Virus record (IMG/VR): IMGVR_UViG_3300032053_005312 | Coordinates: 1-64,000 of that record | Strand: one strand, 5' to 3' | Length of the DNA: 64,000 bases | Origin: a virus | Part shown: piece after piece, positions 4,105 through 30,461 of the stretch | Layout of the letters: each line of letters begins with the position of its first letter | Position numbering within the stretch: the stretch's first letter is position 1 | Translations under genes and position numbers: made by a program | The notes under the pieces: model-generated | Database searches by the model: none | What the model was told of the DNA's origin: nothing | Seen by the model: the letters and a program-made list of their open reading frames with translations, nothing else

Positions 4105-4176
4105 GGCGTGTTCGACTTCTGGTGAGGTCATCTGCCTTTCAAGCAGATTAGATGGGATCGAAACCCATACACGTCA
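4105..4176 (+). tRNA. tRNA-Glu(TTC)
   Basis: TCTGC-CTTTCAA-GCAGA. Confidence 0.88.
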
Positions 4177-4177
4177 C

Positions 4178-7482: not shown

Positions 7483-7544
7483 GTTGGTTGGGATTACATT
7501 CCATTATCAGGAGGAGGTCGCTGGTCCGATTCCAGCACCCGGCA
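7483..7544 (+). pseudogene. Fragment of tRNA-like / Y-like RNA
   Basis: GGATTACATT motif followed by a hairpin, T arm GCTGG-TCCGATT-CCAGC and acceptor 3' strand. Confidence 0.5.
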
Positions 7545-7546
7545 CT

Positions 7547-9611: not shown

Positions 9612-9680
9612 TGCTATGGTGCTGGGACACAGTTGCCCCTCATAAGGGCGACATGGTGGGTTCGATTCCCACCTTAGCAA
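9612..9680 (+). tRNA. Atypical tRNA(CAT) (Met or Ile2)
   Basis: GTG-CTGGGA-CAC D arm with no linker; TTGCCC-CTCATAA-GGGCGA. Confidence 0.75.
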
Positions 9681-9683
9681 CTT

Positions 9684-9772
9684 GGTTCAAATGCCGACAG
9701 GATTACATTTATCGGGCGATGAGCCGAAAGGCCATCTTTCACAAAAAGTTTCTTGTCAATATTTGTTGAGCC
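9684..9772 (+). ncRNA. Bulged-helix ncRNA, putative Y RNA (Ro60 ligand)
   Basis: GGTTCAA/TTGAGCC stem, internal loop ATGCC / AATATTTG, GACAGGA/TCTTGTC stem; same module at 30221-30266. Confidence 0.6.
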
Positions 9773-9777
9773 ATTAT

Positions 9778-17855: not shown

Positions 17856-17927
17856 GCGGGTGTAACTCAATGGTAGAGTACCTGCCTTCCAAGCAGGTTG
17901 TTGTGGGTTCGAGTCCCATCGCCCGCT
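17856..17927 (+). tRNA. tRNA-Gly(TCC)
   Basis: Canonical. Confidence 0.93.
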
Positions 17928-17932
17928 CTTAG

Positions 17933-25508: not shown

Positions 25509-25611
25509 GGTCGGGTAACTCAGCGGCAGAGTCATCAGTGAATCCGGGTGGTTTTATAGTTGCCATTGCGGAAAGTTGATGAGGTCGCAGGTTCGAGTCC
25601 TGCCCCGGCCA
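25509..25611 (+). ncRNA. tRNA-like RNA with extended stem replacing the anticodon loop
   Basis: GGTCGGG/CCCGGCC-A; canonical D and T arms; CATCA/TGATG enclosing a ~38-nt insert. Confidence 0.75.
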
Positions 25612-26559: not shown

Positions 26560-26949
26560 ATGCGAACGAGAAACAACGAGTTGAATCGCACTCATCAACA
26601 GCGATGGTATGCTCAAAATAAAGAGCTTCAAATACAAAGAAACAATGCCAATCGAGAAAAAAAGCTGACGTGGTTCATTGAATATAAAAGGAATTTGAAG
26701 TGCGAGTTGTGTCCTGAATCCCATATAGCGGCTTTGGATTTTCATCATTGTGATCCAAAGAAGAAAAGAGCGGGCATTAACAGACTGATAAATAACAACA
26801 ATAGTTTAGAGGTCATACAAGAAGAAATACAAAAGTGCAGGGTGTTATGCAGTAATTGTCATCGCAAACTACACTACGAAGAAAAGACGGGAGCATGGTG
26901 TAACGGTAGCACACGGGATTTATACCCCCGGCCTAAAGGTGAAGCCTGA
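26560..26949 (+). CDS. HNH homing endonuclease
   Basis: CELCPE..LDFHH..KCRVLCSNCHRKLH. Confidence 0.85.
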   Translation: MRTRNNELNRTHQQRWYAQNKELQIQRNNANREKKLTWFIEYKRNLKCELCPESHIAALDFHHCDPKKKRAGINRLINNNNSLEVIQEEIQKCRVLCSNCHRKLHYEEKTGAWCNGSTRDLYPRPKGEA

Positions 26950-26986
26950 TTAGCTTCAAGAGAAGGTTCGATTCCTTCTGCTCCTA
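26889..26986 (+). tRNA. tRNA-Ile(TAT) with oversized variable region
   Basis: GGGAGCA/TGCTCCT-A; loop TTTATAC; extra hairpin TGAAGC-CTGATTA-GCTTCA. Confidence 0.7.
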
Positions 26987-26999
26987 CTATGTGATTGCA

Positions 27000-27287
27000 A
27001 TGGGCAAGAACAACAAATACCACAAATTCCCTCCCCGCAAGCAGGTTCCTGTCGGCGGGGTTTGTCTTTTGTGTGAATGCAACAGACAAGTGCGAATGGC
27101 AGCACGACCCTTTGTTAAGGGCAAGGCAATTTCTAATGCCCTGGGCTTTCCTGCACCGATGCCATTGATTTGTCCAGGGATGATATTCAAAGGCGTCAAT
27201 AACTTGACAGGCGAAGAGGAATCGTTCAAAGTACATTGTGTATTGATTCTGAATCCAGAACGTAGTTCAGTAGAAAGAATAAAATGA
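27000..27287 (+). CDS. Hypothetical protein
   Basis: ATGA overlap with gltX. Confidence 0.5.
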   Translation: MGKNNKYHKFPPRKQVPVGGVCLLCECNRQVRMAARPFVKGKAISNALGFPAPMPLICPGMIFKGVNNLTGEEESFKVHCVLILNPERSSVERIK

Positions 27288-28192
27288 ACATCACACGCAT
27301 TGCTCCGTCGCCGACCGGCGATATGCACATTGGCACTGCCAGAACTGCATATTTCAACTGGCTCGCAGCACGGGCCAGCGGTGGCAAGTTCATTCTTCGG
27401 GTGGACGACACCGATCAGAAGCGAAACGATCCAGCCTATACAGAAGTCATTCTGTCCACTATGAAGTGGCTGGGTCTGGACTACGATGAGATCGTATTCC
27501 AGAGTTCCAGATTCGACACATACAAGGCCGCAGCGGGCTTGTTGATCCATGAAGGCTGGGCTGTTCCGAAAGATGGGGCCACGGTCTTCAATTTGAAGAA
27601 GGACCATGTGTTCCCTTCTCATTGGAAGGACGAAATCAAGGGCGACATCAAGATTAGTGCCGACGACATATCTCATATGGATGGGATGGTTCTCATTAAG
27701 TCTGATGGAAGTCCATCTTATAATTTTTGTTCAATTGTTGATGATTTGCATATGGGGGTTAACCTAATCATCCGTGGAGTAGATCACATAACAAACACAG
27801 CAAAGCAGGTGATGCTTTGGGATGTTCTCAACAGCGGACAGACGCTACCAAGATTTGCCCACCTTGGTCTTATTTGCATTGATGGAAAGCCTATGTCCAA
27901 AAGAGACGGGGCATCGAGCATGTTGAATTACATGAACGCCGGATATGATGCCGACGCCATGTTGAATTTTCTTGCACGGCTTGGCTGGGGACCAACAAAG
28001 GATGATAAGTCCACAACCCTCTTACCGAGAGATAAGATGCTTGAAATGTTTCTAACTTCGGGTAAGATGAGAAGCCAGCCAGCTAGTTTTGATTCTGGCA
28101 AATTAGAGTCGTTTGACCGCAAATACAAGGCCCGTAAGGGTACTTGGCGAACGGGCGACAAGTTGATTCCTGACACCAACAAAGAGGAATAG
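27284..28192 (+). CDS. gltX: Glutamyl-tRNA synthetase-like, catalytic domain only (GluRS/GluQ-like)
   Basis: RIAPSPTGDMHIG; RVDDTD; IIRGVDHITNT; MSKRDG; 302 aa. Confidence 0.85.
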   Translation: MNITRIAPSPTGDMHIGTARTAYFNWLAARASGGKFILRVDDTDQKRNDPAYTEVILSTMKWLGLDYDEIVFQSSRFDTYKAAAGLLIHEGWAVPKDGATVFNLKKDHVFPSHWKDEIKGDIKISADDISHMDGMVLIKSDGSPSYNFCSIVDDLHMGVNLIIRGVDHITNTAKQVMLWDVLNSGQTLPRFAHLGLICIDGKPMSKRDGASSMLNYMNAGYDADAMLNFLARLGWGPTKDDKSTTLLPRDKMLEMFLTSGKMRSQPASFDSGKLESFDRKYKARKGTWRTGDKLIPDTNKEE

Positions 28193-29216: not shown

Positions 29217-29780
29217 ATGGCTGGATCGTTAGAAAGATTCGACTTCCAAGGTCGAAGTCTTGTGCGTGATGTATTCATTGAAACTGGCACCTACCTGGGC
29301 CAGTCTTCGGAGAATGCGTCTCGTGCGGGGTTCAAACACGTCCATACCATCGAAGTCTCCGACAGGATATTTGCACTGGCTCAAGAGCGATTTGCAGGCC
29401 GGTCAGACGTGACGGCACATCATGGCTCCAGTCCTAGTGTGCTGCCAAGCCTGTGTGATCCTAAGTTGTCAACTGTGTTTTATCTGGACGGCCATTACCA
29501 AGGTGGGCCGCTTGATGAAAATGATCCGTTGGTGGGTGAATGTCCTCTGATATTGGAGTTGGATATTATTCGAGCGGTGGCCTGGGAAACTCCACCAATC
29601 ATCATTATTGATGACTCGAAGATATTCACTATTGCGGCTGAAAGTCGTGATGACTATTTGAAAAACTGTCACCTTGATCCGGTCTTTTGGCCAAGTTATC
29701 AACAGGTGATTGATGCGTTGGGACCGGCCTATACGGTCTACGAAGAAGATGATAGGCTGTACTGCATACCTGGGGAGTGA
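29217..29780 (+). CDS. SAM-dependent methyltransferase-like protein
   Basis: FIETGTYLG..TIE..FYLDGH..IIIDD. Confidence 0.75.
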   Translation: MAGSLERFDFQGRSLVRDVFIETGTYLGQSSENASRAGFKHVHTIEVSDRIFALAQERFAGRSDVTAHHGSSPSVLPSLCDPKLSTVFYLDGHYQGGPLDENDPLVGECPLILELDIIRAVAWETPPIIIIDDSKIFTIAAESRDDYLKNCHLDPVFWPSYQQVIDALGPAYTVYEEDDRLYCIPGE

Positions 29781-30127
29781 CATGGACCAGAACTGGAAGA
29801 AGTTTCTCAAGTGGCAATGGTCGGAAATCAAGAAGTATTTCGGACTACGAGTCCTGGGTGGATAGTCTCGGCTACCATGCTGGCAATGGCAACGGTACAG
29901 CACTGCTCCAAGAGTGGGTGAAGTACAAGAGCCATAACAAGAATGCCAAGCTGATTTGCATCGACCTGACCCCTCGTGCAAACCATCAGGTCAAGGAACG
30001 TGAAGATATTCTCCAGGTCGGTGGATTCTCGGACAACGTATTCAACGTGATCGCAAGGTTCGTTGAAGGTGGCTGGTCGAAGGATTTTTGGGTCAAGGAG
30101 ATTGAAAGCGTTCAACTGGATACTTAA
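29777..30127 (+). pseudogene. C-terminal (vWA) remnant of TROVE/Ro60 (Rsr) protein
   Basis: ISDYESWVD..EW..YK..N..AKLICIDL.P...Q...EDILQVGGFSD.VF. Confidence 0.75.
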
Positions 30128-30183
30128 AATATATCCAGCTAGGTTTGGCTGGGGACCGGGTTGCTGGTCCTCGGCCTGCTTTT

Positions 30184-30306
30184 TGGCGGGTAGCTCAATG
30201 GTAGAGCAAAAGTAAAAACAAATCTAAGCGATATTTGGGCTTCGGCCATGCAGTTTGGATTACATTATCCAACTTTAGGTTGTGTGTTCGATTCACACCC
30301 CGCCAG
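30184..30306 (+). ncRNA. tRNA with permuted Y-RNA-like module in place of the anticodon loop
   Basis: TGGCGGG/CCCGCCA-G, canonical D and T arms; insert AATCTAAGC-GATATTTG-GGC-TTCG-GCC-ATGCA-GTTTGGATT-ACATT. Confidence 0.75.
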
Positions 30307-30338
30307 CTTTTCCAGCAAACTTTATTTTCAGGTGATAT

Positions 30339-30461
30339 ATGGCTAAAGGTAATAACGCACAGAAGAACGACAAGAAAGACAAAAAGCAATCCAAGAATGC
30401 CAAGAAGACAACAGCTACGGCAAGTCAGCCCGCTGTTATTGGCAAGTCCAAGGGTAAGTAA
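30339..30461 (+). CDS. 40-aa Lys-rich protein
   Basis: RBS AGGTGA; MAKGNNAQKNDKKDKK.. Confidence 0.55.
   Translation: MAKGNNAQKNDKKDKKQSKNAKKTTATASQPAVIGKSKGK

What the first reader, a model, noticed from the sequence alone, without database searches (positions are those of the whole stretch)
30184..30306. tRNA carrying a circularly permuted Y-RNA-like module, next to a TROVE/Ro60 remnant
Seen: canonical acceptor, D and T arms, but the anticodon loop is replaced by AATCTAAGC-GATATTTG-GGC[TTCG]GCC-ATGCA-GTTTGGATT-ACATT. The free RNA at 9684-9772 has the same module in the opposite strand order: GGTTCAA-ATGCC-GACAGGATT-ACATT ... TCTTGTC-AATATTTG-TTGAGCC. The loop sequences (ATGCM, RATATTTG, GGATTACATT) are conserved while the helix sequences differ but still pair. 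The element starts ~57 nt after a TROVE C-terminal fragment. Established: bacterial Ro60 binds bulged helices of Y RNAs, and YrlA-type Y RNAs contain a permuted tRNA-like domain. Inference: this is a Y RNA with true tRNA ends that could be processed or charged, possibly a Ro60 adaptor or anticodon-nuclease decoy.
Basis: partly seen in the sequence, partly recalled or inferred. Interest (0 to 1): 0.85.

Follow-up and report, generated by a model that had tools for sequence, protein, structure and literature searches.

The report
tRNA-shaped Y RNA of huge phages
This 123-base gene is a Y RNA (the partner RNA of the Ro60 protein) built in the normal tRNA order rather than the scrambled order of all described bacterial Y RNAs, and it belongs to a small conserved family in very large phages that bears on how Y RNAs arose from tRNAs.

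Summary
Window 30184-30306 scores 51.5 bits on Rfam's tRNA model, with 58 nt in place of the 7-nt anticodon loop. The insert carries the loop signature of bacterial Y RNAs (..UAUUUG / AUGC..GGAUUACAU) seen in the Rfam YrlA and YrlB consensus.

The whole element is collinear with a circular permutation of YrlA. Its ends lie at a 7-bp acceptor stem, and the Ro60-binding stem is capped by a UUCG tetraloop.

The upstream ORF is the last 98 residues of a 569-aa Ro60. A 92%-identical phage keeps the full gene, followed by the same RNA.

I found at least 17 stand-alone copies in seven large phage contigs, all with Ro60 or a remnant of it. All six helices covary: 96.9% of cells pair and 29 of 33 pairs show double changes. 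One copy aligns half by half, in swapped order, to a canonical YrlA of another phage.

No such form turned up in about 100 bacterial Ro60 or YrlA loci, nor in a pattern scan of 185,579 genomes.

Ro60 binding, tRNA-type end maturation and charging are inferred, not shown. I did not find this topology described in the papers I could search.

Verdict: a real new topological variant of a known RNA class.

The parts
29777..30127 (+). Remnant of the Ro60 (TROVE/vWA) gene. The homology covers 29837-30124, equal to residues 472-569 of a 569-aa Ro60.
   Evidence: no TROVE match elsewhere in the 78.6-kb record
29783..29835 (.). Junction of a 1.76-kb deletion relative to the 92%-identical phage contig (L001 5657-7415 is absent here). 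The deletion removed Ro60 codons 1-471.
   Evidence: blastn, window against L001; Logan contigs from several sediment and vent metagenomes bridge the junction
30102..30130 (+). Sigma-70-like promoter match (TTGAAA-17-TAAAAT, 10 of 12) at the end of the remnant.
   Evidence: a consensus match only
30147..30184 (+). 13-bp GC-rich hairpin followed by a T run (terminator-like). It ends exactly at the first base of the element.
30184..30306 (+). The element: a tRNA-topology YrlA-like Y RNA ('A-type').
30184..30190 (+). Acceptor stem 5' strand (UGGCGGG). It pairs with 30299-30305.
   Evidence: 7 of 7 pairs covary
30193..30207 (+). D arm GCUC-AAUGGUA-GAGC, identical to the YrlA consensus D arm.
30209..30213 (+). 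Anticodon-stem 5' strand (AAAGU). It pairs with 30272-30276.
30221..30229 (+). Helix 2 strand AAUCUAAGC. It pairs with 30253-30261 and includes a U-G wobble that is invariant across copies.
30230..30237 (+). Internal-loop strand GAUAUUUG. It corresponds to aAaAcUuG in YrlA and UuuAUUUG in YrlB.
30238..30247 (+). Helix 1 closed as GGC-UUCG-GCC. In ordinary Y RNAs this is the open terminal stem.
30248..30266 (+). AUGCA, then helix 2 strand GUUUGGAUU, then ACAUU: the Y-RNA signature.
30272..30276 (+). Anticodon-stem 3' strand (ACUUU).
30282..30298 (+). T arm GUGUG-UUCGAUU-CACAC.
30299..30308 (+). Acceptor 3' strand CCCGCCA, discriminator G (30306), then a CU trailer as after 32 of the 34 tRNAs in this window. 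No CCA is encoded.
9679..9775 (+). Free YrlB-like Y RNA in the ordinary topology (open helix 1 GGUUCAA/UUGAGCC), lying between two tRNAs.
   Evidence: full-length but weak YrlB alignment, 14.6 bits
7487..7546 (+). 3' half of a second A-type copy (GUUGGGAUUACAUU..T arm..acceptor 3' strand..CU). The related phage has the whole copy at L186 8006-8130; about 75 nt are deleted here.
30339..30461 (+). 40-aa lysine-rich ORF with an AGGTGA ribosome-binding site directly downstream, conserved in L001. Its role is unknown.

Best explanation
Window 30184-30306 encodes a member of a small conserved family of YrlA-type Y RNAs that keep the ordinary tRNA chain order.

Shown: it has a 7-bp acceptor stem with free ends, a D arm, a T arm and a 5-nt variable loop. 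The anticodon stem continues into a rod in place of an anticodon loop. The rod consists of a 9-bp helix, the asymmetric internal loop (GAUAUUUG opposite AUGCA) that marks the Ro60-binding site of bacterial Y RNAs, and a 3-bp stem capped by UUCG. Described YrlA RNAs have the same parts but are opened at the Ro60-binding stem and closed at the acceptor stem.

Inferred: the RNA folds into a tRNA-like L. It is cut out of its transcript by the tRNA end-processing enzymes (RNase P at the 5' end; a 3' endonuclease at the discriminator-CU site that it shares with the phage's tRNAs; then CCA addition). Its rod binds a Ro60 ring, and its tRNA-like body recruits or mimics a substrate for a tRNA-binding factor, as proposed for YrlA.

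In this particular phage a recent 1.76-kb deletion removed most of the adjacent Ro60 gene. Here the RNA would therefore have to work with a Ro60 encoded elsewhere (phage or host), or it is newly orphaned.
For: The tRNA frame scores 51.5 bits with a 58-nt insert.

The Rfam YrlB and YrlA consensus alignments show the same motifs in the same structural places, and the element is collinear with a permuted YrlA.

A full-length Ro60 is followed by the same RNA 57 nt downstream in L001. Between the two phages the element differs only by a one-base G deletion in L001, with no substitutions, while the flanks are about 92% identical.

Stand-alone copies occur in seven large phage contigs, up to four per genome. 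All of these contigs carry Ro60 or a remnant.

On 13 copies aligned with two ordinary tRNAs, 96.9% of cells pair and 29 of 33 pairs have double changes. No shuffle out of 500 reaches this, and slid controls give 38-45%.

Helix 1 is usually 3 bp plus a stable tetraloop (UUCG, UACG, GCAA).

The L153 copy aligns to the canonical YrlA of L150 in swapped halves at roughly 85-88% identity.

The discriminator-CU trailer is shared with 32 of 34 tRNAs of the window.

Precedent: M. smegmatis YrlA is cleaved by RNase P and receives CCA in vivo (PMC4201824).
Against: There are no RNA data: no RNA run is on record for this DNA. Expression, ends and CCA addition are therefore unshown.

The conserved GNCGAA/CGAA motif of the Ro60-binding stem is only partly kept. 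This copy reads GCC-AUGC where the consensus reads CGA-AUGC, and helix 1 is only 3 bp, so Ro60 binding is not assured.

The Rfam YrlA model does not match the element, as expected for a permuted order (18.4 bits, partial, over the upstream hairpin and 5' end only).

The L001 copy lacks one G of the acceptor stem.

A terminator-like hairpin sits directly upstream, so how the RNA is transcribed is unclear.

The covariation alignments were fitted to the model's structure, which favours that structure.
Confidence: 0.7

Rival explanations
1. It is an intron-containing tRNA gene. The roughly 51-nt insert is spliced out and an ordinary decoding tRNA remains.
For: The insert sits exactly in the anticodon-loop position of an otherwise high-scoring tRNA. 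One copy (L005) has an extra hairpin with an anticodon-like CUGAAAA loop next to the module.
Against: No removal of the insert leaves a 7-nt loop with U33 and a purine at 37 (sequence).

The insert is far too short for a group I intron. No bulge-helix-bulge motif is evident by eye, and no bacterial enzyme for such small introns is known (established knowledge; also stated in 10.1101/312249).

The insert itself is the most conserved part, carries the Y-RNA motifs, and its helices covary.
Confidence: 0.04
2. It is a functionless relic: a decaying by-product of recombination among tRNA and Y RNA genes in a phage that has already lost Ro60.
For: In this phage Ro60 is truncated and a second copy (7487-7546) is half deleted. 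In the sister phage the free Y RNA is broken instead. The L001 copy has a 1-nt acceptor deletion.
Against: The element has no substitutions against L001 over 122 nt, with about 92% identical flanks. The same architecture recurs in divergent phages with compensatory changes in every helix, including the acceptor stem. There are multiple paralogues per genome.

The Ro60 remnant itself differs little from L001: about 11 differences in roughly 290 nt. The loss therefore looks recent and says little about the family.
Confidence: 0.1
3. It is a Ro60-independent tRNA mimic. The tRNA body serves as a scaffold or decoy (for example for anticodon nucleases, tRNA-modifying enzymes or tRNA-sensing defence systems), and the rod merely replaces the vulnerable anticodon loop.
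For: This phage keeps the element although its neighbouring Ro60 is gone, and the deleted genotype is found in several metagenomes. The canonical CGAA motif is degraded in this copy.
Against: The rod keeps the specific Y-RNA loop sequences and an invariant U-G pair across all copies, which a mere cap would not need. All carrier contigs encode Ro60 or a remnant. Close homology to canonical YrlA is shown directly.
Confidence: 0.13
4. It is an artefact of reading across two neighbouring ordinary YrlA genes (D arm of one, T arm of the next), not a unit of its own.
For: Such cross-junction reads do occur and score 30-64 bits with my model in tandem YrlA arrays of bacteria and some phages, for example L180, L093 and L196.
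Against: Here the flanks are a protein-gene remnant plus a hairpin upstream and an ORF downstream. There is no T arm upstream and no D arm downstream. Helix 1 is a tight 10-nt hairpin. The two acceptor strands pair with each other 7 of 7 and not with their flanks.
Confidence: 0.01

Closest known systems
YrlA (Rfam RF02553), the tRNA-like Y RNA of bacteria and phages
   Same: It has the same parts with the same conserved sequences: the D arm GUAGCUCA..GGUAGAGC, a T arm, a short 'anticodon' stem, a bulged helix with ..GGAYUACAU, and the internal loop AUGC / ..UUG. It is also linked to Ro60.
   Different: The chain is opened at the acceptor stem and closed at the Ro60-binding stem, which is the reverse of YrlA. 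Helix 1 is reduced to 3 bp plus a tetraloop in most copies. The GNCGAA motif is only partly kept. The Rfam model does not detect it.
[quoted passage not shown] 2014, PMC4201824)
   Same: It is a YrlA with a 7-bp acceptor stem that acquires tRNA-like free acceptor ends, bound by Ro60 (Rsr).
   Different: There the free ends arise by cutting a closed loop, giving a two-piece RNA that is also open at the Ro60 stem. Here the gene itself encodes a one-piece RNA with tRNA order.
YrlB (Rfam RF02565)
   Same: It shares the Ro60-module motifs AUGCU..GGAUUA / UAUuuAUUUG. Window element 9679-9775 aligns to it end to end.
   Different: YrlB has no full tRNA body and has open terminal ends. The match is weak (14.6 bits against a gathering score of 97).
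One-piece versus circularly permuted two-piece tmRNA, and permuted tRNA genes of algae and archaea
   Same: The same RNA fold is encoded in two circularly permuted gene orders in different lineages.
   Different: These are different RNA families with different functions. This is an analogy for the evolutionary process only.
b7a-tRNA (Band-7-associated tRNA-like RNA; Burroughs and Aravind 2016, as cited in 10.1101/312249)
   Same: It is a predicted RNA that looks like an authentic tRNA and is sometimes encoded next to Ro60 or RtcB.
   Different: I could not obtain its sequence or description (the paper is not held). Whether it carries a Y-RNA module in the anticodon arm is unknown to me, so this was not tested.

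Membership tests
YrlA (RF02553) | tRNA-like domain with conserved D and T arms able to form the elbow | tested here: met
   The D arm is identical to the consensus. The T loop is UUCGAUU with the G53-C61 pair, and G18 G19 are present.
YrlA (RF02553) | Ro60-binding stem with internal loop AUGC / ..UUG and the GNCGAA(N)G motif | tested here: inconclusive
   The loop motifs and GGAUUACAU are present. This copy has GCC-AUGC in place of CGA-AUGC. Other copies keep GGA-AUGC or UCGA-AUGC.
YrlA (RF02553) | 5' and 3' ends pair to form the Ro60-binding stem, and the acceptor stem is a closed hairpin (permuted tRNA order) | tested here: not met
   The ends lie at the acceptor stem and helix 1 is closed by UUCG.
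YrlA (RF02553) | Reaches the Rfam gathering score (69 bits) | tested here: not met
   There is only an 18.4-bit partial match, over the upstream hairpin and the acceptor and D arm.
YrlA (RF02553) | Encoded near a Ro60 gene | tested here: met
   It lies 56 nt after the Ro60 remnant here, 57 nt after full Ro60 in L001, and within 0.2-1 kb in L005, L006 and L024. Ro60 is in the same contig for L153 and L179.
YrlA (RF02553) | Bound by Ro60 in vivo or in vitro | not testable with these tools
   This needs a gel-shift assay or immunoprecipitation.
tRNA (RF00005) | Cloverleaf with acceptor, D and T arms above the gathering score | tested here: met
   51.5 bits against 29.
tRNA (RF00005) | 7-nt anticodon loop presenting an anticodon | tested here: not met
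   58 nt of structured RNA stand in its place, and no U33/R37 loop can be restored.
tRNA (RF00005) | CCA end and aminoacylation | not testable with these tools
   CCA is not encoded, as for the phage's true tRNAs. The acceptor stems vary freely and none has G3:U70.
Intron-bearing bacterial or phage tRNA | Group I intron fold, or another recognised splice signal in the anticodon loop | tested here: not met
   No intron family was found by cmscan at E up to 10. The insert is about 51 nt.

The most novel reading that the evidence does not exclude
These RNAs are living representatives of the ancestral form of YrlA: a tRNA whose anticodon arm became a Ro60-binding site. On this reading canonical YrlA arose, repeatedly, by re-cutting tandem copies, as the dimeric-tRNA model proposes.

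Because they keep a free acceptor end, they would be matured, CCA-tailed and perhaps even aminoacylated or bound by EF-Tu. That would physically couple Ro60 RNA surveillance to the tRNA and translation machinery during infection by huge phages.
Probability: 0.2. Interest if true: 0.85.

Novelty: new variant of a known kind. Interest (0 to 1): 0.66.

Why it matters
Y RNAs of the YrlA class are described as circularly permuted tRNA mimics without a free CCA end. Their proposed origin from dimeric tRNA transcripts has had no intermediate to point to (10.1101/312249).

A naturally occurring, conserved, unpermuted form changes this in three ways:
- It gives that model a concrete test object.
- It shows that the two gene orders interconvert between closely related phages.
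- It raises a testable question: can a Ro60-binding RNA enter the tRNA maturation pathway through RNase P, 3' trimming and CCA addition?

It also adds to the picture of huge phages carrying elaborate tRNA-based RNA toolkits. In practice, standard tRNA finders and the Rfam YrlA model both miss these genes.

Tried and rejected
The closest Ro60 relatives (P0002-P0030, from Logan and ENA contigs) could therefore not be inspected for the RNA.
- Pfam, PDB and six-frame PF05731 searches on the 116-aa ORF or the record were blank. Only the 'longer' homologue search identified the ORF.
- No RNA holder was listed for the stretch. The laid DNA contigs were identical to the window and added no variants.
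- A strict A-type DNA pattern in IMG/VR gave mostly chance hits in coding DNA. L120 shares 19 nt with the element but has no tRNA frame, so I left it as probable chance.
- A MAFFT alignment of four copies was unusable at the ends. I replaced it with model-guided alignments.
- Long model hits in bacterial and metagenome Ro60 loci, and in L155, L178, L180 and L183, are reads across tandem canonical Y RNAs and not stand-alone units.
- blastn-short of the two halves against all loci found no canonical partner for the window copy itself.
- No CCA-adding enzyme (PF01743) or RtcB (PF01139) is present in the 78.6-kb record, which is only about 16% of the genome.
- The reviews by Sim and Wolin 2018 and Sim et al. 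2020 are not held. The Burroughs and Aravind 2016 paper was not found by term search. I could not check whether an unpermuted YrlA or the b7a-tRNA description anticipates this finding.

Full report
**The window.** It is the first 64 kb of a 78.6-kb IMG/VR virus record that CheckV rates 16% complete, so it is a fragment of a very large phage. It carries 34 ARAGORN tRNAs and several odd tRNA-like genes.

**The observation.** Rfam's tRNA model matches 30184-30306 at 51.5 bits (gathering score 29). The acceptor, D and T arms are perfect, and 58 nt stand where the 7-nt anticodon loop belongs. ARAGORN and the default-filter Rfam scan miss it.

The insert reads AAUCUAAGC-GAUAUUUG-GGC[UUCG]GCC-AUGCA-GUUUGGAUU-ACAUU. 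The free element at 9679-9775 has the same loops with the strands in the other order. ATGCNNNNNGGATTACATT occurs only at these two places, with 0.00 expected by chance. GGATTACATT occurs a third time at 7491. The proposed fold costs -35.3 kcal/mol against an MFE of -37.1.

**What the motifs are.** The Rfam alignments show that they are the signature of bacterial Y RNAs.
- The YrlB consensus reads ..GGcgcGa-AUGCU-gGcCgGGAUUA ... AUCCcGgCuA-UuuAUUUG-uCgcgC. Element 9679-9775 aligns to it from end to end, though weakly at 14.6 bits.
- The YrlA consensus, seen on a phage example in L003, runs in this order: helix 1, AUGCu, helix 2 with ..gaaCUAc, a 3-bp stem, a variable loop, the T arm, a closed acceptor hairpin, UA, the D arm GCUCA..GGUAGAGC, the other strand of helix 2, aAaAcUuG, and helix 1.

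Read from its acceptor stem, 30184-30306 has exactly these parts in the cyclically shifted order. Its ends lie at the acceptor, and helix 1 is closed by UUCG. Published work describes YrlA as resembling a circularly permuted tRNA with a closed acceptor stem and no free CCA end (10.1101/312249). This element is the unpermuted counterpart.

**The neighbour.** ORF 29777-30127 gave nothing in Pfam or the PDB. It does have 198 longer homologues of about 520-620 aa that carry PF25045 and mostly PF05731, many of them named 60 kDa SS-A/Ro. tblastn places window 29837-30124 on residues 472-569 of the 569-aa protein P0001 at 87% identity. The remaining 471 residues are not found in the window, and the TROVE profile PF05731 has no six-frame match anywhere in the 78.6-kb record.

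A 340-kb IMG/VR contig (L001) is 92-93% identical to the window. It has the full Ro60 gene and, 57 nt after it, the same RNA. The window lacks L001 5657-7415, a 1.76-kb deletion. Contigs from several sediment and hydrothermal-vent metagenomes bridge this junction, so the deleted genotype circulates in nature.

The RNA has no substitutions against L001, which only lacks one G of the acceptor stem. The flanks show 4-13 differences per 50 nt in several bins, and the Ro60 remnant has about 11 differences in 290 nt.

**A family.**
- A motif-plus-T-loop pattern found 52 Y-RNA-like sites in 42 IMG/VR loci, against about 2-3 expected by my own estimate. Most are canonical YrlA genes in the tRNA arrays of large phages.
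- Covariance models built from the element (R1), then from six copies (R2), found stand-alone copies with the tRNA order at these places: L186 8006-8130 (a second copy in the L001 phage); L005; L153; L179 (two in tandem); L006/L007 (two, one with a long helix 1 that keeps UCGA-AUGC); and L024 (long helix 1).
- Whole-record searches add three more copies in the 533-kb record and three more in the 188-kb record.
- The window's 7487-7546 is the 3' half of the L186 copy, left by a deletion of about 75 nt.
- All carrier contigs encode Ro60. It lies 0.06-1 kb upstream in four of them, 11 kb away in one, and about 6 kb away across the contig ends in another.

**Structure support.** The alignment holds 13 copies and two true tRNAs.
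- 96.9% of cells form standard pairs, and 29 of 33 pairs show changes on both sides.
- None of 500 shuffles reaches these values, and sliding the partner by 1-3 columns drops pairing to 38-45%.
- Every one of the seven acceptor pairs covaries, so the open acceptor stem is itself under selection.
- One U-G wobble in helix 2 is invariant.
- Helix 1 is usually 3 bp capped by UUCG, UACG, GCAA, UAAC or UCAC.

The caveat is that these alignments were fitted to the model's structure.

**Direct evidence for permutation.** The 3' part of the L153 copy (AUGC through the acceptor 3' strand) aligns to nt 7-73 of the canonical YrlA in L150. Its 5' part (acceptor 5' strand through helix 1) aligns to nt 87-139. 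The local alignments are about 85-88% identical by my count of the printed alignments. Close homologues in two phages therefore differ by where the chain is open.

In tandem arrays of canonical YrlA genes, the stretch from one D arm to the next T arm already reads like the unpermuted form (L180, L093, L196). This shows how duplication followed by re-cutting could convert one form into the other. The same arrays are why lower-scoring long hits had to be rejected as artefacts.

**Distribution.** I found no stand-alone copy among 80 bacterial-type Ro60 loci from metagenomes. A pattern scan of one genome for each of 185,579 species returned only 18 loci with 19 sites, all canonical YrlA. That pattern demanded specific motifs, so absence from cells is not proven.

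**Processing clue.** In 32 of 34 tRNAs of the window the discriminator is followed by C-U, and CCA is not encoded. The element (G30306 | CU), the half copy at 7544 | CU, and most copies in the other phages share this trailer. The precedent is M. smegmatis YrlA. It has a 7-bp acceptor stem, is cleaved by RNase P in vivo and in vitro, and receives CCA (PMC4201824).

A terminator-like hairpin ends exactly at the element's first base, and a promoter-like site lies 50 nt further upstream. How the RNA is transcribed remains open.

**Mechanism, with its status.**
- Shown: the architecture, its homology to YrlA, its conservation and its linkage to Ro60.
- Inferred: the RNA folds into an L-shaped tRNA body. 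Its extended anticodon arm presents the Ro60-binding loop. It is released by tRNA-processing enzymes. It tethers Ro60 to, or competes for, a tRNA-binding factor.
- Not supported by anything here: aminoacylation. The acceptor stems differ freely and none has G3:U70.
- Weak point: the CGAA motif is degraded in this copy and helix 1 is very short.
- In this phage the adjacent Ro60 gene was lost recently. The RNA is either served by another Ro60 or newly orphaned.

**Novelty.** The papers I could search describe only permuted YrlA, its RNase P-cleaved two-piece form in M. smegmatis, and a dimeric-tRNA origin model. I found no description of a genomically unpermuted YrlA. Two reviews and the Burroughs and Aravind paper on the b7a-tRNA were not available, so prior description cannot be excluded. 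I class the element as a new variant of a known kind.

Noticed in passing
window, all tRNA genes (e.g. 17856-17928, 4105-4177): 32 of 34 tRNA genes are followed by C-U straight after the discriminator. Only C74 of CCA is encoded, which suggests a phage-wide 3'-processing signal.
   Followed up: partly
window 26889-26986: tRNA-Ile(UAU)-like gene with a variable arm of about 31 nt. Rfam tRNA gives 50.4 bits and ARAGORN misses it. Its counterpart L001 2771-2863 is called tRNA-Ile(tat).
   Followed up: no
window 25509-25611: tRNA body (acceptor, D and T arms) whose anticodon loop is replaced by a long irregular stem with no Y-RNA motif. L001 2649-2751 is its counterpart.
   Followed up: partly
window 27284-28192: 302-aa ORF with only the catalytic domain of class I Glu/Gln tRNA synthetases (PF00749, E 1e-61). 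By size it resembles a GluQ-RS.
   Followed up: no
window 30339-30461: 40-aa lysine-rich ORF with a strong ribosome-binding site directly after the RNA, conserved in L001. It may be a small RNA-binding protein.
   Followed up: no
L186 10331-10390 (contig of L001): The counterpart of window Y RNA 9679-9775 has lost its 3' half and runs into a T arm plus an acceptor 3' strand. The two sister phages have each broken different members of their Y-RNA set.
   Followed up: partly
L055 4600-5000 and many metagenome Ro60 loci: Three or four Y RNAs in tandem follow Ro60, each starting ..GA-AUGCY. Neighbouring copies have similar helix 1 and acceptor hairpins.
   Followed up: partly
L005 5709-5727: This A-type copy has an extra small hairpin, GUCCU-CUGAAAA-GGGAU, with an anticodon-loop-like sequence (GAA) beside the Ro60 module.
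   Followed up: no
L003 1436-1847: A Ro60-bearing phage contig also encodes a full tmRNA (132.7 bits) inside its tRNA array.
   Followed up: no
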